DNA of 9,984 bases from a virus (Duplodnaviria; Heunggongvirae; Uroviricota; Caudoviricetes): IMG/VR virus record IMGVR_UViG_3300014515_000023; one strand, given 5' to 3'. Every line of letters starts with the position of its first letter. Within the stretch, counting starts at the first letter, position 1. The notes beneath the pieces are model-generated. The model was not told the DNA's origin, did no database searches, and saw nothing but the letters and a program-made list of their open reading frames with translations. Position numbers and translations under genes: made by a program. Of the stretch, positions 181-6,386 are shown one piece after another.

Positions 181-795
181 ATGCAGAATTTATCTCAACA
201 GTTGTTAGAAGCATATGACAAGGAGTGCCGCAAAGAGCTTTCGATCGCGTTAGCACAGGCTTATCTTCATTCGCATATGAAGGCAAAAGAGTTTGGTTCT
301 TTTTGGGCTCAAGCACAGTCATATTTGCGCTGGTTTTATGCCGATGCATTGCTTGAGAATGCGGCTAAGCGTGTGGGGCTGGATTTTGAAGTCGGTAGCA
401 ATGCTGCTAAAAATTGTAAACACATTGCGATTCACTCGAACAACTGGAAAATGACGGCACATCATTTATCGGGTAATGCGCCACTTCCTAAGCAGGCATT
501 GTATAGAGCTGTTTACGCTAATCAAAATTATGAATTGAATTTTGGGGATGAAAATGCCGACTCCCTGGATGGGAGAGCGTCTGGTGGACATGTTTATATG
601 TTACATGATGGCAGTAATCAGCACTTGTCCAAACTGAATTTAACTGTTCCTTCTTCGGATAATTACGGGATTCTTTATACTGAGTCTTTACCAATTATGA
701 CGATGGTAGAAGTTGAAGCAGAAAATGTGGATTCTGAGATTGAAGATAAAATCAAGATTCTTACCGAACAAATAATTAAATCACAGCAATCATGA
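181..795 (+). CDS. Hypothetical protein, 204 aa, first gene of the cassette; no domain recognised
   Basis: Clean ORF with an RBS and an upstream promoter-like site. Its stop TGA (793-795) overlaps the ATG (792-794) of the next gene, which suggests translational coupling. AT-richer than the flanking phage genes by eye. Acidic C-terminal tail. I recognise no catalytic motif. Confidence 0.75.
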   Translation: MQNLSQQLLEAYDKECRKELSIALAQAYLHSHMKAKEFGSFWAQAQSYLRWFYADALLENAAKRVGLDFEVGSNAAKNCKHIAIHSNNWKMTAHHLSGNAPLPKQALYRAVYANQNYELNFGDENADSLDGRASGGHVYMLHDGSNQHLSKLNLTVPSSDNYGILYTESLPIMTMVEVEAENVDSEIEDKIKILTEQIIKSQQS

Positions 796-1937
796 GCATG
801 AATATCGCACAAACACCATTTACTGATAAATCGTTTAATCCTCGTCGCCTTGAGGAGGCAAGAGAGGCAAAAGGGTTGACGATGGCTGAACTTGCCAGAG
901 TGCTCAATATTTCAAGACAAGCTATTTCGTCATTTGAGAAGGGGTTGAAGTCTCCCTCTGCTGATACACTTTCTGCAATAGCCAAGGTGTTAGGATTTCC
1001 AGAACGATTTTTCTTAGCCTCCAGTGCTTCTCCATCTCTGGAGGGGGCGATTCATTTTAGAAGTCGTTCAACTGCGACCAAAAAGGCTCGAGTTACAGGG
1101 AAAACACGTGGGCGTTGGGCGGCATTAATATTGGATGAATGTCTAAAATATGCTCAATTACCAGATGTGGTTCTGCCTGAATTCGATATTATTGATTTTG
1201 AGGTTCTGTCTCTATCTGATATTGAGGATATGTCCACCCAATTAAGGCGTTTTTGGGGGTTAGGTGATGGTCCAATACTCAATTTAACTAGACTTGTTGA
1301 AAATAAAGGAATCGTGGTTTCTCATTTACCTTCTGGTGAGAAAGTTGATGCCTTTTCGTTCTGGCATAATGGGCGGCCTTTAATTATGTTAGATAGCTCG
1401 AAGACGGCTGTTCGCATGCGATTTAGTCTTGCTCATGAACTTGGCCATTTAATTATGCATAGGGCAGTGGAGGATGACTACCTGAATGATAAAGAATTAT
1501 TCGACCTAGTGGAGTTGCAGGCCGATTATTTTGCCTCCAGCTTTTTAATGCCAGCCACGACTTTCGGGCGTGAATTTTATAGTCCAAATTTATCAGCGTT
1601 AGAACGATTAAAACTACGTTGGATTACATCTATCGGTAGTATTGCCATGAGGAGTCATAGCCTTAAGTTAATTAGCGATAATCAGAAAAGCTATATATTT
1701 AAGCAATTAGCGCCATTCCATCGTAGGGAGCCGTTAGATGATGCAATCCCAAAAGAAGAGCCTGAGTTACTTAATAAGTTACTTTTACTTCTTGATAAGC
1801 ATTCAATCATAAAGGTAACTGAGTTAACTGATATCTTTGCTCTTCCTTTAAATGAGTTATCTGCAATTACACGATTTAAAGAATCAGATATGATTCATTC
1901 TGACAATGTTATTTCATTTACCATAAAACAAAAATAA
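792..1937 (+). CDS. Fused XRE-family HTH and ImmA/IrrE-type (COG2856, peptidase M78-like) zinc metallopeptidase, 381 aa
   Basis: N-terminal segment (residues about 20-75, GLTMAELARVLNISRQAISSFEKG) matches the XRE/Cro-C1 helix-turn-helix pattern. HEXXH zinc motif HELGH at residues 215-219 (nt 1434-1448) sits in the context SLAHELGHLIMH typical of ImmA/IrrE peptidases. A C-terminal extension of about 150 aa has unknown function. Followed by a terminator. Confidence 0.85.
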   Translation: MSMNIAQTPFTDKSFNPRRLEEAREAKGLTMAELARVLNISRQAISSFEKGLKSPSADTLSAIAKVLGFPERFFLASSASPSLEGAIHFRSRSTATKKARVTGKTRGRWAALILDECLKYAQLPDVVLPEFDIIDFEVLSLSDIEDMSTQLRRFWGLGDGPILNLTRLVENKGIVVSHLPSGEKVDAFSFWHNGRPLIMLDSSKTAVRMRFSLAHELGHLIMHRAVEDDYLNDKELFDLVELQADYFASSFLMPATTFGREFYSPNLSALERLKLRWITSIGSIAMRSHSLKLISDNQKSYIFKQLAPFHRREPLDDAIPKEEPELLNKLLLLLDKHSIIKVTELTDIFALPLNELSAITRFKESDMIHSDNVISFTIKQK

Positions 1938-2323: not shown

Positions 2324-3379
2324 GTGCGGGTATTACTTCGACCTGTTCTGGTACCGGAACTCGGTCTGGTTATCGTTAAGCCAGGCCGTGAATCAATGTC
2401 AGCATTCCATAACGGCAGAATACTGGTGGAGCCGGAACCAAAAAGCATGCGTAATCTGCCGTCCGGGGTCGTTCCTGCCGCTCGCCAGCCGCTGGTGGAA
2501 GACAAAACATTGCTGCCGTTTTTCAGTAACGCACGGGGGATTCGTGCTGCTGGTGGTGCTGGTGCATTGTCTGACTGGCTGTTGCGCCATATTAAATCCT
2601 GCCAGTGGCCACACGGCGATTATCATCACAGCGAAACCGTCATTCACCGTTATGGTACCGGCGCAATGGTGTTGTGCTGGCACTGCGACAACCAGCTGCG
2701 TGACCAGACATCCGAATCACTCGAGCAACTTGCTCATCAAAACCTGTCAGCATGGATGATTGACGTCATCGGTCACGCAATAAGCGGTACGCAGGAGCGT
2801 GAATTATCTCTGGCTGAATTATCCTGGTGGGCGGTCCGCAATCAGGTGGCGGACGCGCTACCGGAAGCGGTATTACGTCGTTCGCTGGGGTTGCGTGCGG
2901 AAAAAATCCGCTCAATGTACCGTGAAAGCGACATCGTACCGGGAGAGCAGACCGCCACCAGCATACTGAAGCAGCGCACAAAAAATCTTGCGCCGCTGCC
3001 TCACGCCCACCAGCAAAACCCGCCACAGGAAAAGACGGTGGTCAGCATTGCTGTTGATCCGGAGTCACCGGCTCAGTATCTCCAGCGCCAGAAACCACAA
3101 CGGGAAGAGATGCCTGTATACACGCGCTGGGTAAAAACGCAGAAATGCATGACGTGCGGTAATCAGGCAGATGATCCGCATCACATCATTGGTCATGGAC
3201 TGGGAGGGATGGGAACAAAGGCTGATGATTTGTTTGTTATTCCGCTGTGCCGTAAATGTCATAACGAACTGCACGCCGGGGTAAAAGATTTTGAAGAAAA
3301 ACACGGCAGCCAGCTGTTGTTGCTGATTCGTTTTTTAATGCACGCGAGAAATTCGGGTGTCCTGAAGTGGAAAGCATGA
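2324..3379 (+). CDS. DUF968-like (YdfU-like) prophage protein with two Cys/His-rich clusters, 351 aa
   Basis: GTG start preceded by GGAGG (2310-2314). C-terminal cluster C275-x2-C278, H286-H287, H291, C309-x2-C312-H313, H317 (nt about 3146-3274). N-terminal cluster C93, H97, HH101-102, C118-WH-C121. Sits immediately upstream of rusA. The family call is from memory of Qin-prophage YdfU. Confidence 0.65.
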   Translation: MRVLLRPVLVPELGLVIVKPGRESMSAFHNGRILVEPEPKSMRNLPSGVVPAARQPLVEDKTLLPFFSNARGIRAAGGAGALSDWLLRHIKSCQWPHGDYHHSETVIHRYGTGAMVLCWHCDNQLRDQTSESLEQLAHQNLSAWMIDVIGHAISGTQERELSLAELSWWAVRNQVADALPEAVLRRSLGLRAEKIRSMYRESDIVPGEQTATSILKQRTKNLAPLPHAHQQNPPQEKTVVSIAVDPESPAQYLQRQKPQREEMPVYTRWVKTQKCMTCGNQADDPHHIIGHGLGGMGTKADDLFVIPLCRKCHNELHAGVKDFEEKHGSQLLLLIRFLMHARNSGVLKWKA

Positions 3380-3745
3380 ATGACTGAACGCATAGAATTT
3401 GTTTTGCCTTACCCGCCAACGGTGAACACTTACTGGCGACGTCGTGGCAGCACATATTTTGTATCAAAAGTCGGTGAGCGTTATCGCCGTGATGTGGCGC
3501 TTATTGTTCGCCAGCAGCAACTGAAATTAAACCTGTCCGGAAGGCCGGCAATAGAAATTATTGCAGAGCCACCGGATAAGCGCCGTCGTGACCTGGACAA
3601 TATCCTGAAGGCACCACTGGATGTACTGACGCATGCGGGGCTGCTCATAGACGACGAGCAGTTTGATGAAATTAATATTGTGCGCGGTCAGCTTGTTCCT
3701 GGTGGGCGGTTGGGGATAAAAATCACAGAACTGGAGTACGCATGA
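3380..3745 (+). CDS. rusA: RusA-family Holliday junction resolvase, 121 aa
   Basis: Size and motifs match E. coli RusA as recalled: LPYPPTVNTYWRRRG near the N-terminus, the catalytic-region RRRDLDNILKAPLDVL, and GGRLGIKITE near the C-terminus. Stop overlaps the next gene's start (ATGA at 3742-3745). Confidence 0.9.
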   Translation: MTERIEFVLPYPPTVNTYWRRRGSTYFVSKVGERYRRDVALIVRQQQLKLNLSGRPAIEIIAEPPDKRRRDLDNILKAPLDVLTHAGLLIDDEQFDEINIVRGQLVPGGRLGIKITELEYA

Positions 3746-4431
3746 ATAACCAGTATTTACAGTTTGTTCGTGAGCAACTCATGATTGCCACCGCCGATTT
3801 GAGTGGATCAACAAAAGGGCAGCTTGAGGCCTGGCAGGAGAATGCCATGTTTGATACAGGGCGTTACAGGCGTAAAAAAATCCGGTACCGCGATGAAGTG
3901 ACTGGAAAAATGATAACGCGGGATAATCCACCAATCCCGGGAAAGCAATCGCTGGCGAAGGGGGTGTCAATTCCTCTCGTCAGTCCGGTTGAGTTTTCGA
4001 CATCATCGTGGCGGCGGGCTGTTCTGTCTCTTGAAGAACATCATAAAGCCTGGTTGTTGTGGTGTTACAGCGGGAGTATTTGTTGGGAATATCAGATCGC
4101 GATAACGCAGTGGGTGTGGAATGAATTTAAAACCCGGTACGGCACCAGAAAAATTGCAGGGAAAACGCAGGAGCGCGTGAAGAAGTTGATCTGGCTGGCG
4201 GCACAGGATGTCAGAGGATGGATTACCGGGTGTGAGGTCTACCAGAGACAGGAGCTTGCCAGACTGTGTGGAGTTAAGCCTGATAACTGGAGCCATAATT
4301 ATGCGAACTACTGGCGTGAGATGTGCGATATTTTTAAGAGTCTCGATAGAGAATCTGTGATTTGCACCGTGAAAATAAGAGCGCAACAAAAAGCGACTTT
4401 TTCACGACGAGATATTGCAAAAGTCAATTAA
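3742..4431 (+). CDS. Putative late-gene antiterminator Q (phage 82/Qin quuQ-like class), 229 aa
   Basis: Position is canonical: immediately after rusA and immediately before a promoter-like region plus a short-transcript terminator. Translationally coupled to rusA. The family assignment is by synteny and recollection, not by a motif I can verify. Confidence 0.55.
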   Translation: MNNQYLQFVREQLMIATADLSGSTKGQLEAWQENAMFDTGRYRRKKIRYRDEVTGKMITRDNPPIPGKQSLAKGVSIPLVSPVEFSTSSWRRAVLSLEEHHKAWLLWCYSGSICWEYQIAITQWVWNEFKTRYGTRKIAGKTQERVKKLIWLAAQDVRGWITGCEVYQRQELARLCGVKPDNWSHNYANYWREMCDIFKSLDRESVICTVKIRAQQKATFSRRDIAKVN

Positions 4432-4452
4432 ATAGCGTACGTTTCGTATAAA
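4415..4452 (+). promoter_or_regulatory. Candidate late promoter (PR'-like) / Q-utilisation region
   Basis: TTGCAA at 4415-4420 and -10-like TATAAA at 4447-4452 lie directly downstream of the Q stop and about 50-70 nt upstream of a strong terminator, analogous to lambda PR'-tR'. The spacing is non-ideal, so this is tentative. Confidence 0.3.
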
Positions 4453-4492
4453 TCTGATATTTTGCCGATTTTGTACGCGATGGCAAAGTAAG

Positions 4493-4523
4493 AAAAAAAA
4501 CTGCCGTCAGGCGGTTTTTTTTT
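4493..4523 (+). terminator. Intrinsic terminator (tR'-like), potentially bidirectional
   Basis: A8 (4493-4500), stem CTGCC (4501-4505), loop GTCA, stem GGCGG (4510-4514), T9 (4515-4523). Confidence 0.65.
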
Positions 4524-4645
4524 ATGCCCAAAATCGCGTCAGTACAGTAAACACGCTGGTGGTTGCGAATACGGGTCTTTCAGCTTGCTGGCTTTTTCGA
4601 CAAGAGTTATTGGTATGTCACGTTAACCGGAAAAAGGAAAAAGAC

Positions 4646-4843
4646 ATGCTAAAACAGCAGGATATGACAGAAACCGCCAGAGTGGTGTTTAATGAATTAA
4701 GCGTTACCGAACCGGCGACAGTCGGGGAGATAGCGCAGAATACTTACCTTTCACGCGAACGCTGCCAGTTAATACTGACCCAGCTGGTTATGGCGGGGGG
4801 GGCAGACTATCAGTTCGGTTGTTACAGACGCCTTCAGTCCTGA
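4646..4843 (+). CDS. Small hypothetical protein, about 65 aa, possible HTH/winged-helix DNA-binding protein
   Basis: ATG at 4646 preceded by AAGGAAAAAG RBS. This is the in-frame internal start of track ORF 4559..4843. The segment TVGEIAQNTYLSRERCQLILTQL resembles a helix-turn-helix. Sits between tR' and the methyltransferase. Confidence 0.45.
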   Translation: MLKQQDMTETARVVFNELSVTEPATVGEIAQNTYLSRERCQLILTQLVMAGGADYQFGCYRRLQS

Positions 4844-4993
4844 AGGCTTTTTTATTTGTGGTAAATGGGCGGCTGGTGGGTGTTAGGGGCACCCACCAGC
4901 CATCTGCTCATGCGTTGGGTTCACAAGCAAACCTCAGGCCCACTGCTTTGCGCAAAAGCAGAATGAGCCTATCAGAGACAGGCTTAATGATCC

Positions 4994-6043
4994 ATGCTTA
5001 ATACTGTAAAAATATCCAGTTGTGAGTTAATCAACGCCGACTGCCTGGAATTTATCCGGTCGTTACCCGAAAATTCTGTTGACCTGATAGTCACGGACCC
5101 GCCGTACTTTAAAGTGAAGCCTGAGGGCTGGGATAACCAGTGGAAGGGCGACGATGATTACCTGAAGTGGCTGGACCAGTGTCTGGCGCAGTTCTGGCGG
5201 GTGCTGAAACCTGTCGGAAGTCTTTACCTGTTCTGTGGTCATCGCCTGGCATCTGATATCGAAATCATGATGCGTGAACGCTTCAGTGTGCTGAACCATA
5301 TTATCTGGGCGAAGCCGTCCGGACGCTGGAACGGATGCAACAAGGAAAGCCTGCGGGCGTATTTCCCCGCCACAGAGCGCATTCTGTTCGCGGAACATTA
5401 TCAGGGGCCGTATCGTCCGAAAGATGCCGGGTATGCGGCGAAGGGCAGTGCACTGAAACAGCATGTGATGGCCCCGCTGATTTCTTACTTTCGTGATGCG
5501 CGCGCTGCCCTGGGGATAACGGCAAAACAGATTGCAGATGCCACAGGAAAGAAAAACATGGTGTCGCACTGGTTCAGTGCCAGTCAGTGGCAGCTACCGA
5601 ACGAAAGCGATTATCTGAAATTACAGTCGCTGTTTGCCCGGGTGGCAGAAGAGAAACATCAGCGCGGTGAACTGGAAAAGCCCCACCACCAGCTGGTGGA
5701 TACGTATACGTCACTGAACCGGCAGTATGTGGAGCTGCAGAGTGAATATAAGCATCTGCGGCGGTATTTTGGTGTGACGGCGCAGGTGCCGTACACGGAT
5801 GTGTGGACACATAAACCGGTGCAGTTCTATCCCGGGAAACATCCGTGCGAAAAACCGGCAGAAATGCTGCAGCAGATAATCAGCGCAAGCAGTCGTCCGG
5901 GTGACCTGGTTGCAGATTTTTTTATGGGCTCAGGTTCAACGGTAAAAGCGGCACTGGCGCTTGGGCGTCGTGCGATTGGCGTTGAACTGGAGACCGGACG
6001 TTTTGAGCAGACAGTCAGGGAAGTTCAGGATTTAATCGTTTGA
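4994..6043 (+). CDS. DNA N6-adenine or N4-cytosine methyltransferase, beta-class motif order, apparently orphan, 349 aa
   Basis: Motif IV DPPY at residues 35-38 (nt 5096-5107) in the context SVDLIVTDPPYF. SAM-binding motif I FxGxG (FFMGSGST) at residues 309-316 (nt 5918-5941). Motif IV before motif I is the beta-class order. No restriction-endonuclease-like ORF is adjacent. Confidence 0.9.
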   Translation: MLNTVKISSCELINADCLEFIRSLPENSVDLIVTDPPYFKVKPEGWDNQWKGDDDYLKWLDQCLAQFWRVLKPVGSLYLFCGHRLASDIEIMMRERFSVLNHIIWAKPSGRWNGCNKESLRAYFPATERILFAEHYQGPYRPKDAGYAAKGSALKQHVMAPLISYFRDARAALGITAKQIADATGKKNMVSHWFSASQWQLPNESDYLKLQSLFARVAEEKHQRGELEKPHHQLVDTYTSLNRQYVELQSEYKHLRRYFGVTAQVPYTDVWTHKPVQFYPGKHPCEKPAEMLQQIISASSRPGDLVADFFMGSGSTVKAALALGRRAIGVELETGRFEQTVREVQDLIV

Positions 6044-6092
6044 AACGGATGAGATTGCAGAATTAATTACGCACCATTATTATTCTGCTCCC

Positions 6093-6168
6093 GGCCCTTT
6101 AGCTCAGTGGTGAGAGCGAGCGACTCATAATCGCCAGGTCGCTGGTTCAAATCCAGCAAGGGCCACCA
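6093..6168 (+). tRNA. ileZ: tRNA-Ile2-like, anticodon CAU (lysidine type), 76 nt with encoded CCA
   Basis: Manual cloverleaf: acceptor GGCCCTT/AAGGGCC, D-arm GCTC-AGTGGTGA-GAGC, anticodon loop CTCATAA, T-loop TTCAAAT, then A-CCA. Closely resembles E. coli ileX as I recall it. A Met identity cannot be excluded from sequence alone. Confidence 0.85.
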
Positions 6169-6175
6169 TCACATA

Positions 6176-6252
6176 CCGCCATTAGCTCATCAGGAAAGAG
6201 CGCCAGCTTTCGAAGCTGGTTGCGCGGAGTTCGGGTCCCCGAAGGCGGTCCA
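6176..6252 (+). tRNA. tRNA-Arg, anticodon UCG, with non-canonical features
   Basis: Anticodon stem CCAGC/GCTGG is perfect with loop TTTCGAA (anticodon TCG). D-arm GCTC...GAGC. The acceptor stem has one A-A mismatch. The T stem has one A-C mismatch. The T-loop TTCGGGT has G at the usually invariant A58 position. Discriminator T, then CCA. Confidence 0.6.
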
Positions 6253-6265
6253 TTATCTGTATCCT

Positions 6266-6342
6266 GCGTTGTTAGCTCAGCCGGACAGAGCAATTGCCTT
6301 CTAAGCAATCGGTCACTGGTTCGAATCCAGTACAACGCGCCA
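6266..6342 (+). tRNA. tRNA-Arg, anticodon UCU, 77 nt with encoded CCA
   Basis: Perfect acceptor GCGTTGT/ACAACGC, anticodon loop CTTCTAA, T-loop TTCGAAT, discriminator G, CCA. Architecture is like E. coli argU. Confidence 0.85.
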
Positions 6343-6386
6343 CACTTATTTTCCCTGGCTCGCTTTTGCGGGCTTTTTTTAAATGT

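What the first reader, a model, noticed from the sequence alone, without database searches (positions are those of the whole stretch)
4994..6043. Orphan beta-class DNA methyltransferase in the late-regulatory region
Motif IV (DPPY, nt 5096-5107) precedes motif I (FFMGSGST, nt 5918-5941), the beta-class order of amino-methyltransferases. There is no cognate restriction enzyme in the window. A phage-borne orphan methyltransferase can protect phage DNA against host restriction or alter host gene expression or prophage induction.
Basis: partly seen in the sequence, partly recalled or inferred. Interest (0 to 1): 0.4.

Follow-up and report, generated by a model that had tools for sequence, protein, structure and literature searches.

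The report
Known prophage non-specific adenine methyltransferase
The gene is a real, intact orphan DNA methyltransferase, but an already characterised one: a near-identical copy of the E. coli prophage enzymes M.EcoGI/M.EcoGII, which methylate adenine in any sequence context and stay silent in the lysogen.

Summary
ORF 4994-6043 (+) encodes 349 aa, with DPPY at nt 5096-5107 and FFMGSGST at nt 5918-5941. It matches Pfam N6_N4_Mtase at E = 2.7e-44.

The gene is not new. The identical protein is already recorded on at least 1000 public contigs. It is 346/349 identical to the only PF01555-type methyltransferase in the ompW prophage of E. coli EC958; by elimination that is M.EcoMV, published as 99% identical to M.EcoGI. 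It is about 94-95% identical to M.EcoGII. Both M.EcoGI and M.EcoGII were reported to methylate adenine without sequence specificity and to be unexpressed in lysogens.

The window is a lambdoid prophage late-regulatory region: DUF968, RusA, Q antiterminator, small winged-helix ORF, methyltransferase, three tRNAs, two STnc100 sRNAs, a nanS-p-like esterase and a holin. No restriction enzyme is annotated in either of two related prophages, one seen from integrase into the tail genes, the other complete. The order Q, methyltransferase, lysis genes recurs in Salmonella, Klebsiella and Erwinia.

Most likely mechanism (partly inferred): Q-dependent late transcription after induction, then bulk adenine methylation of replicating phage DNA as broad protection against restriction in the next host.

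The gene is already known and of low interest. A side observation is that a 65-aa winged-helix gene and a structured leader are tightly linked to the methyltransferase.

The parts
4994..6043 (+). Methyltransferase CDS, 349 aa plus stop; an M.EcoGI/M.EcoGII-type beta-class N6-adenine methyltransferase
   Evidence: ORF list. Pfam PF01555 at E = 2.7e-44. 346/349 identical to the EC958 ompW-prophage methyltransferase. 330/350 identical to a machine-read M.EcoGII sequence. The exact protein is on at least 1000 public contigs.
5096..5107 (+). Motif IV, catalytic DPPY (aa 35-38)
   Evidence: Coordinates. D35, P36, P37 and Y38 are invariant in 34 homologues.
5432..5752 (+). [quoted passage not shown]
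   Evidence: The AF2 model has helices at 147-173, 177-184, 190-194, 204-223 and 231-253, with block pLDDT of 62-86. The published M.EcoGII model places the recognition domain at residues 160-237 (PMC11551740).
5918..5941 (+). Motif I, SAM-binding FFMGSGST (aa 309-316; FxGxG at 5921-5935)
   Evidence: Coordinates. F309, F310, G312, S313, G314, S315 and T316 are invariant.
4646..4843 (+). 65-aa winged-helix ORF tightly linked to the methyltransferase (phrog_331; named 'TrmB family transcriptional regulator' by NCBI)
   Evidence: It lies 348-349 nt upstream, start to start, in 77 of 79 viral loci with enough upstream DNA. It is also present in Salmonella and Klebsiella loci. dN/dS is 0.07-0.10. 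The AF2 model has pLDDT 88 and a winged-helix topology. PDB fold matches are to generic winged-helix domains only.
4844..4993 (+). Structured leader between the winged-helix ORF and the methyltransferase start; the last hairpin ends about 9 nt before the ATG
   Evidence: RNA fold of 4820-4996 gives MFE -71.1 kcal/mol and z = -3.68, with 0 of 200 shuffles folding as well. The sequence is conserved in E. coli, Salmonella and Klebsiella loci.
4830..4857 (+). Terminator-like hairpin plus T-run overlapping the stop codon of the winged-helix ORF
   Evidence: 7-bp stem followed by TTTTTTATTT. The hairpin is kept, with changes on both sides of the stem, in the Klebsiella locus.
4503..4525 (+). Terminator-like hairpin plus T9 run just downstream of Q; putative tR' of the late promoter
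   Evidence: sequence read. The assignment as tR' is an inference by analogy with lambdoid pR'-tR'.
3742..4431 (+). Late antiterminator Q (229 aa), the presumed activator of read-through into the methyltransferase
   Evidence: Pfam PF06323 Phage_antiter_Q at E = 1.4e-83.
6093..6342 (+). Three phage tRNA genes directly downstream (anticodons CAT, TCG, TCT); context that marks the position equivalent to the one upstream of stx in Stx phages
   Evidence: ARAGORN and Rfam. RefSeq names the first one tRNA-Ile in near-identical prophages.

Best explanation
ORF 4994-6043 encodes an allele of the prophage methyltransferase M.EcoGI/M.EcoMV, a close relative of M.EcoGII. This is a beta-class, SAM-dependent N6-adenine methyltransferase that methylates adenine regardless of sequence context.

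The gene has no restriction partner. It lies downstream of the late antiterminator Q and behind two terminator-like hairpins. No promoter-like site was found on its own strand.

It is therefore most likely silent in the lysogen and transcribed only when Q lets RNA polymerase read through after prophage induction. The enzyme would then methylate a large share of the adenines in replicating phage DNA before packaging. Progeny DNA would enter the next host already protected against the many Type I, II and III restriction enzymes that m6A blocks.

Shown here: the identity of the gene, intact motifs, purifying selection, orphan status and conserved late-operon position.

Taken from the literature on near-identical proteins: non-specific activity, silence in lysogens and toxicity when expressed.

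Inferred: Q-dependent timing and the anti-restriction benefit.
For: Identity:
- Pfam PF01555 at E = 2.7e-44.
- Motif order and coordinates confirmed.
- 346/349 identical to the only PF01555-type prophage methyltransferase of EC958. By elimination that is M.EcoMV, published as 99% identical to M.EcoGI and encoded on prophage Phi4 (PMC4659465).
- 330/350 identical to M.EcoGII as machine-read from Table S1 of PMC11551740.
- 95% identical to the phage 1720a-02 enzyme, which Murray et al. name as a close homologue.

Activity, from the literature:
- M.EcoGI and M.EcoGII are reported as non-specific for adenine (PMC5778455; PMC4659465; PMC6602927).
- Reconstructed ancestors across the family remain largely non-sequence-specific (PMC11551740).

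Functional gene: all motif residues are invariant in 34 homologues. Against Salmonella, Klebsiella and Erwinia orthologues pN is 0.14 while pS is 0.75-0.80.

Orphan: no restriction enzyme is annotated in the E19035 ompW prophage, seen from integrase to the tail-assembly genes, or in the complete EC958 one.

Late position:
- Q lies upstream, with terminator-like hairpins at 4503 and 4830, and there is no + strand promoter-like site in 4300-7400.
- The order Q, methyltransferase, holin/lysozyme recurs with three different Q families in Salmonella, Klebsiella and Erwinia.

Silence in lysogens, from the literature: M.EcoMV transcripts are low by RT-PCR (PMC4659465). No methylation motif is attributable to homologues in O111 strains (PMC6602927). 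[quoted passage not shown]
Against: - No experiment on this allele exists. It differs from the EC958 protein at three positions (L2, V74, D346) and from M.EcoGII at about 16-18 positions, several of them in the central recognition region.
- I found no paper that measures adenine methylation of packaged phage DNA, or a restriction-escape phenotype, for any member of this family. The biological role is therefore inferred.
[quoted passage not shown] Full hypermethylation could therefore harm incoming phage DNA.
- The pR' promoter was not located by the consensus scan.
- The enzyme also acts on ssDNA and RNA, so DNA protection need not be its only role.
Confidence: 0.8

Rival explanations
1. It is a sequence-specific orphan methyltransferase, as the database name 'site-specific DNA-methyltransferase' implies. 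It would mark a defined motif and act as an epigenetic regulator of host or prophage genes in the lysogen.
For: Public names for the cluster are 'site-specific DNA-methyltransferase' or 'adenine-specific DNA-methyltransferase'. The central region has a size normal for a recognition domain and contains a helix-turn-helix (PMC7544214; PMC11551740). Other orphan beta-class enzymes, such as CcrM and YhdJ, are sequence-specific.
Against: The protein is 99% identical to the EC958 enzyme that matches M.EcoGI. It is about 94-95% identical to M.EcoGII. Both reference enzymes were reported non-specific when cloned. NCBIfam equivalog scores are far below cut-off: PRK11524 scores 111.9 against 292, and CcrM 71 against 830. 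Homologues give no motif signal and low transcription in lysogens.
Confidence: 0.05
2. Its main substrate is RNA or single-stranded DNA. During lytic growth it would methylate host or phage RNA (for example the adjacent phage tRNAs, or mRNA), or single-stranded replication and packaging intermediates. Protection of duplex DNA from restriction would then be secondary.
For: M.EcoGII methylates ssDNA almost as well as dsDNA, and also methylates RNA and DNA:RNA hybrids (PMC5778455; PMC7544214). The gene sits directly upstream of three phage tRNA genes.
Against: The initial velocity of M.EcoGII on RNA is about 100-fold lower than on DNA: 0.12 against 11.12 units (Table S3 of PMC11551740). The tRNA block is absent downstream in the Salmonella, Klebsiella and Erwinia loci, while the methyltransferase is kept. 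No RNA phenotype has been reported in the papers read.
Confidence: 0.08
3. It is half of a restriction-modification system whose endonuclease lies outside the window, or is the nearby DUF968/HNH-like protein at 2324-3379.
For: DUF968 carries a weak HNHc_6 nuclease match at E = 1.3e-7. It recurs a few genes upstream of the methyltransferase in all four distant loci.
Against: No restriction enzyme is annotated in the E19035 ompW prophage, seen from integrase to the tail-assembly genes, or in the complete EC958 one. DUF968 has no PADLOC hit. It lies in the early nin-type region, separated from the methyltransferase by RusA and Q. A restriction enzyme expressed while its methyltransferase is silent would kill the host. 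From my own knowledge, not tested here: DUF968 proteins such as YdfU of the K-12 Qin prophage occur without this methyltransferase.
Confidence: 0.02
4. It is a decaying passenger gene of a cryptic prophage with no current function.
For: Murray et al. describe the M.EcoGII prophage as cryptic and the gene as unexpressed. Many truncated copies exist in databases.
Against: The reading frame is intact and all motif residues are conserved. Selection is strongly purifying across genera. The identical protein occurs on at least 1000 contigs. The gene is present in inducible, sequenced Stx phages. Cloned M.EcoGI and M.EcoGII are highly active.
Confidence: 0.04

Closest known systems
M.EcoGI (E. coli O104:H4 C227-11) and M.EcoMV (E. 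coli ST131 EC958, prophage Phi4)
   Same: The window protein is 346/349 identical to the EC958 ompW-prophage enzyme, which is published as 99% identical to M.EcoGI. Length is the same at 349 aa. The neighbourhood is the same: DUF968, RusA, Q, small ORF, methyltransferase, tRNAs, SASA esterase, holin. Both are orphan and prophage-borne.
   Different: There are three substitutions (L2 for A, V74 for A, D346 for G). The window carries a different Q allele (PF06323, 229 aa) from the 273-aa antiterminator in EC958. I did not hold the M.EcoGI sequence itself; the link runs through the published 99% figure.
M.EcoGII, the biochemically characterised non-specific adenine methyltransferase sold as a reagent
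   Same: It has the same length and beta-class layout, with DPPY, a central recognition domain and FxGxG. Raw identity is 330/350 to the machine-read published sequence. That is in line with the 333/349 published for M.EcoGI against M.EcoGII.
   Different: About 16-18 substitutions, mostly in aa 148-263. The comparison sequence came from a machine-read PDF. That text shows the same odd strings (NHHIWA, GRRRAIG) in every listed protein, so those are probably reading errors, and the exact identity is uncertain by a few residues.
Methyltransferase of Stx-converting phages (phage 1720a-02, Stx2a/2c/2d phages, phiP27)
   Same: The gene occupies the same slot between Q and the tRNA/stx region. Nucleotide identity is 84-96% and protein identity is 95% to the 1720a-02 enzyme.
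   Different: This window has no stx genes. At the equivalent position it carries two STnc100 sRNA copies within a roughly 470-bp duplication.
Phage Mu Mom
   Same: It works in a comparable way: a temperate-phage DNA-modifying enzyme that is silent in the lysogen, toxic if expressed out of turn, made late after induction, and gives broad protection against restriction (comparison drawn in PMC12707154).
   Different: Mom is an unrelated protein with different chemistry, from my own knowledge an acetamido modification of adenine rather than methylation. This is an analogy of function only, not family membership.
Promiscuous alpha-class adenine methyltransferases (M.HaeV type) and the ssDNA-specific M.EcoGIX
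   Same: They are mobile-element-borne adenine methyltransferases with very relaxed specificity (PMC5778455; PMC7736820).
   Different: M.HaeV-type enzymes have the opposite motif order (alpha class) and retain some context preference. M.EcoGIX is plasmid-borne and specific for single strands.

Membership tests
Beta-class N6/N4 amino-methyltransferases (Pfam PF01555, N6_N4_Mtase) | Profile match above the curated threshold | tested here: met
   152.2 bits against a cut-off of 26.7, E = 2.7e-44, covering aa 29-340.
Beta-class N6/N4 amino-methyltransferases (Pfam PF01555, N6_N4_Mtase) | Motif order: catalytic motif IV (D/S-PP-Y/F) N-terminal, then the recognition region, then SAM-binding motif I (FxGxG) C-terminal | tested here: met
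   DPPY at aa 35-38 and FMGSG at aa 310-314. Both are invariant in 34 homologues.
M.EcoGI/M.EcoGII family of non-specific prophage adenine methyltransferases | Near-full-length, high sequence identity to a characterised member | tested here: met
   346/349 identical to the EC958 enzyme that is published as 99% identical to M.EcoGI. 330/350 identical to machine-read M.EcoGII.
M.EcoGI/M.EcoGII family of non-specific prophage adenine methyltransferases | Encoded on a lambdoid prophage, with no cognate endonuclease | tested here: met
   No restriction enzyme is annotated in the E19035 prophage (integrase to tail-assembly genes) or the complete EC958 one. The same holds within 6 kb on either side in Salmonella, Klebsiella and Erwinia loci.
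M.EcoGI/M.EcoGII family of non-specific prophage adenine methyltransferases | Rossmann catalytic domain split by a helical linker and a four-helix-bundle recognition domain containing a helix-turn-helix (published AlphaFold model) | tested here: inconclusive
   My AF2 model has helices in the expected places (aa 147-253), but mean pLDDT is only 65.7 from a shallow alignment. I did not use it for fold search.
M.EcoGI/M.EcoGII family of non-specific prophage adenine methyltransferases | Methylates adenine in any sequence context | not testable with these tools
   This rests on published experiments with M.EcoGI and M.EcoGII (PMC5778455; PMC4659465). It needs expression of this allele and methylome sequencing.
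M.EcoGI/M.EcoGII family of non-specific prophage adenine methyltransferases | Not expressed in the lysogen | not testable with these tools
   Published for M.EcoMV by RT-PCR and for M.EcoGI/GII. Consistent here with the position behind Q and two terminator-like hairpins, and with no + strand promoter-like site.
Type II restriction-modification system methyltransferase | A cognate restriction endonuclease gene adjacent or nearby | tested here: not met
   None is found in the window or annotated in the two related prophages. PADLOC matches a 'Type II methyltransferase' model only.
Site-specific orphan methyltransferases CcrM and YhdJ-like (NCBIfam equivalogs) | Score above the equivalog cut-off | tested here: not met
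   PRK11524 scores 111.9 against 292. The CcrM model scores 71 against 830.

The most novel reading that the evidence does not exclude
The methyltransferase may not be a lone gene. It could be part of a three-part cassette that travels together behind different Q alleles: a 65-aa winged-helix protein, a structured 150-nt leader containing a terminator-like hairpin, and the methyltransferase.

The winged-helix protein could be a dedicated controller of this toxic enzyme, comparable to the C proteins of restriction-modification systems. It could also be a reader of adenine-methylated DNA. Nothing I read describes such a partner for M.EcoGII-type enzymes.
Probability: 0.2. Interest if true: 0.45.

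Novelty: already known. Interest (0 to 1): 0.1.

Why it matters
For annotation, the gene should be labelled as an M.EcoGI/M.EcoGII-type non-specific adenine methyltransferase. The current label 'site-specific DNA-methyltransferase' is misleading, and no recognition motif should be expected.

For experiment design, methylome comparison of uninduced lysogens will miss it. Induced cultures or packaged phage DNA are required.

In biological terms it is one more copy of a very widespread late-gene module of enterobacterial lambdoid and Stx-type prophages. The module probably gives progeny phage broad protection against restriction.

The open question is not what the gene is. It is whether and how far phage DNA is methylated in vivo. 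It is also unclear how the phage tolerates that, given that heavily methylated plasmid DNA transforms very poorly. Nothing in this window adds new evidence on that question, apart from the conserved link to a small winged-helix gene.

Tried and rejected
1. **Clean M.EcoGII or M.EcoGI sequence.** None was available. Murray et al. have no supplements held. I used the machine-read Table S1 of PMC11551740, which has evident reading errors, so identity to M.EcoGII is approximate. To get a clean reference I walked the EC958 chromosome. The first region held no prophage. The second held only the tail-fibre end and right junction of the ompW prophage. The third found the methyltransferase.

2. **Structure prediction of the methyltransferase.** A 34-sequence alignment with at least 75% identity to the query gave mean pLDDT of only 65.7. 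I did not run a fold search on it, because a low-confidence model gives meaningless matches.

3. **PDB sequence search.** It found only generic beta-class relatives, with the best E = 2.5e-25 covering the two conserved lobes and not the central domain. No close relative in the PDB matches the central domain.

4. **Fold search of the small winged-helix model.** It returned only generic winged-helix domains, all with E above 0.001, so no specific function could be assigned.

5. **Promoter scan.** No sigma-70-like site was found on the + strand in 4300-7400. The late promoter pR' is therefore not mapped. By eye, TATAAA at 4447-4452 is a candidate -10 element, but it is unsupported.

6. **Rfam.** There was no family hit in the leader region 4844-4993.

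7. **DUF968 as a hidden restriction partner.** Considered and rejected; see the rival explanations.

8. **Literature on phage biology of this enzyme.** Searches for measured methylation of phage DNA, or a restriction-escape phenotype, found only reviews and inference.

Full report
**1. The observation**

The + strand ORF at 4994-6043 starts with ATG, ends with TGA and encodes 349 aa. The catalytic motif precedes the SAM-binding motif, which is the beta-class order.

The match to Pfam N6_N4_Mtase (PF01555) is E = 2.7e-44, 152 bits against a cut-off of 26.7, over aa 29-340. Solved relatives are beta-class enzymes: M.RsrI, CcrM, M.MboIIA, DpnA and M.PvuII. They match only the two conserved lobes and not the central region.

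**2. The surroundings**

The window is the late-regulatory region of a lambdoid prophage:

| Coordinates | Feature |
|---|---|
| 181-1937 | Two-gene RmrT/RmrA (Rosmer-type) cassette |
| 2324-3379 | DUF968 |
| 3380-3745 | RusA |
| 3742-4431 | Antiterminator Q (PF06323) |
| 4646-4843 | 65-aa ORF |
| 4994-6043 | Methyltransferase |
| 6093-6342 | Three tRNAs |
| 6417-6607, 6885-7094 | Two STnc100 sRNA matches |
| 7317-9170 | nanS-p-like SASA esterase |
| 9243-9536 | P21-type holin |
| 9538-9891 | DUF1327 |

This is the layout of Stx-converting phages without the stx genes. The gene has 84-96% nucleotide identity to the 'DNA methylase' of 38 phage records, almost all Stx2 phages. In phage 1720a-02 the order is Q, small ORF, methyltransferase, stx2A.

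**3. What the gene is**

- The exact 349-aa protein is already in public collections on at least 1000 contigs. It belongs to a cluster of 5932 members named 'site-specific DNA-methyltransferase'.
- IMG/VR returned over 600 matching stretches, many 100% identical.
- Murray et al. describe M.EcoGII as a 349-aa beta-class enzyme of a 'very large family' on E. coli prophages. It is 333/349 identical to M.EcoGI and 'very similar' to the phage 1720a-02 enzyme (PMC5778455).
- The window protein is 95% identical to the 1720a-02 enzyme.
- It is 330/350 identical to M.EcoGII as machine-read from Table S1 of PMC11551740. That text contains reading errors, so the figure is approximate.
- For a clean reference I located the ompW prophage of E. 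coli EC958. Its only PF01555-type methyltransferase is 346/349 identical to the window protein.
- The EC958 methylome paper lists two prophage methyltransferases: a Dam homologue, and M.EcoMV on Phi4, which is 99% identical to M.EcoGI (PMC4659465). By elimination the gene I found is M.EcoMV.

The window gene is therefore an M.EcoGI allele.

**4. Activity, taken from the literature and not tested here**

- M.EcoGII methylates up to 99% of dA in vitro and more than 85% in vivo. It blocks all tested m6A-sensitive restriction enzymes, and it also acts on ssDNA, RNA and hybrids (PMC5778455).
- M.EcoGI is cited as non-specific (PMC4659465). Homologues at about 93% similarity are classed as non-specific in O111 strains (PMC6602927).
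- Reconstructed ancestors of the family remain largely non-sequence-specific (PMC11551740).
- NCBIfam equivalogs for site-specific relatives fall far below cut-off.

**5. Is the gene functional?**

All motif residues are invariant across 34 homologues with 75-94% identity to the query. Against Salmonella, Klebsiella and Erwinia orthologues, synonymous sites are saturated (pS 0.75-0.80) while pN is 0.14. The library of representatives holds 302 clusters at E of 1e-30 or better.

**6. Orphan status**

The prophage of strain E19035 (integrase to the tail-assembly genes) and the complete EC958 prophage, both at ompW, have no annotated restriction enzyme. Neither do the 6-kb flanks in Salmonella, Klebsiella and Erwinia. 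DUF968 carries a weak HNH-like match. It lies in the early region, has no defence-system hit, and could not safely be paired with a silent methyltransferase.

**7. Expression, inferred**

- The gene lies behind Q and two terminator-like hairpins, at 4503-4515 plus T9 and at 4830-4847 plus T6. No + strand promoter-like site was found in 4300-7400.
- The order Q, methyltransferase, holin/lysozyme recurs with three unrelated Q families: PF06323 here, PF06530 in Klebsiella and PF03589 in Erwinia. In Salmonella the order DUF968, small ORF, methyltransferase, holin is kept, but no Q family was recognised there.
- In 80 viral loci the same Q allele is present in only 13 of 76, while the methyltransferase is constant.
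- This fits the published low transcription of M.EcoMV in the lysogen. [quoted passage not shown]

**8. Mechanism**

After induction, Q-modified RNA polymerase reads through into the gene. The enzyme then methylates adenines in replicating phage DNA, and packaged DNA is broadly protected from m6A-sensitive restriction in the next host.

The weak points are as follows. No paper I found measures methylation of phage DNA or restriction escape for this family. Heavily methylated plasmid DNA transforms E. coli 4-5 orders of magnitude worse.

**9. Side observations**

- The 65-aa ORF at 4646-4843 sits 348-349 nt upstream in 77 of 79 loci. It is under purifying selection, with dN/dS of 0.07-0.10. It is predicted as a winged helix at pLDDT 88, with only generic structural neighbours.
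- The 150-nt leader between that ORF and the methyltransferase is unusually structured, with z = -3.68, and is conserved.
- Together these suggest a controlled cassette, but this is only a lead.

**10. Verdict**

The finding is real and correctly read. The gene is already known, extremely common and biochemically characterised through near-identical proteins. Interest is low.

Noticed in passing
window 4646-4843 (+): A 65-aa ORF (phrog_331; NCBI 'TrmB family transcriptional regulator') always accompanies the methyltransferase. It lies 348-349 nt upstream in 77 of 79 viral loci, and also in Salmonella and Klebsiella, but not in the Erwinia locus. dN/dS is 0.07-0.10. The AF2 model has pLDDT 88 and is a winged helix. 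Fold search gives only generic winged-helix matches. It could be a controller of the toxic methyltransferase or a DNA reader. In the window copy, the nearly invariant L52 is G.
   Followed up: partly
window 4844-4993 (+): The leader between the small ORF and the methyltransferase folds far better than shuffled sequence: MFE -71.1 kcal/mol, z = -3.68. It forms a terminator-like hairpin, a 14-bp hairpin and two further hairpins, the last ending about 9 nt before the ATG. The sequence is conserved in E. coli, Salmonella and Klebsiella loci, and there is no Rfam hit. The methyltransferase ATG overlaps the stop of an upstream frame (ATGCTTAA).
   Followed up: partly
window 6387-7094 (+): Two full-length matches to the sRNA family STnc100 (6417-6607 at 136 bits; 6885-7094 at 165 bits) lie inside a roughly 470-485-bp direct duplication. 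This is the position where Stx phages carry stx. Several terminator-like hairpins are repeated with the duplication.
   Followed up: partly
window 181-1937 (+): This is a two-gene cassette: a 204-aa protein (phrog_35814; weak PADLOC RmrT hits) followed by a 381-aa HTH plus Peptidase_M78 protein. The second protein matches PADLOC RmrA at 5.5e-102 and NCBIfam 'spr1629 family repressor/antitoxin'. It looks like a Rosmer-type toxin-antitoxin defence system carried in the prophage early region next to hokD.
   Followed up: partly
window 6093-6342 (+): The tRNA triplet has anticodons CAT, TCG and TCT. ARAGORN calls the first one Met, but RefSeq names it tRNA-Ile in near-identical prophages. This matches the ileZ-argN-argO set of Stx phages (from my own knowledge).
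   Followed up: no
window 3742-4431 versus loci L003-L082: There is a mosaic boundary. The winged-helix ORF and methyltransferase are constant, but the Q gene upstream is the window's allele in only 13 of 76 loci. The cargo downstream also varies: stx, IraM, a Cas1-like gene with an AcrVA2-like gene in Klebsiella, or nothing before the holin in Erwinia.
   Followed up: partly
window 7317-9170 (+): A 617-aa protein with DUF1737, SASA esterase and DUF6645 domains (phrog_143). It is the nanS-p-type sialate O-acetylesterase common in Stx and related prophages (name from my own knowledge).
   Followed up: no
L084 8143-9808 (Klebsiella locus): Downstream of the Klebsiella orthologue lie genes with Pfam hits to Cas1 and AcrVA2-like, and an Acb2/Tad1-hairpin protein follows the lysis genes. 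These look like counter-defence cargo in the same late-operon slot.
   Followed up: no
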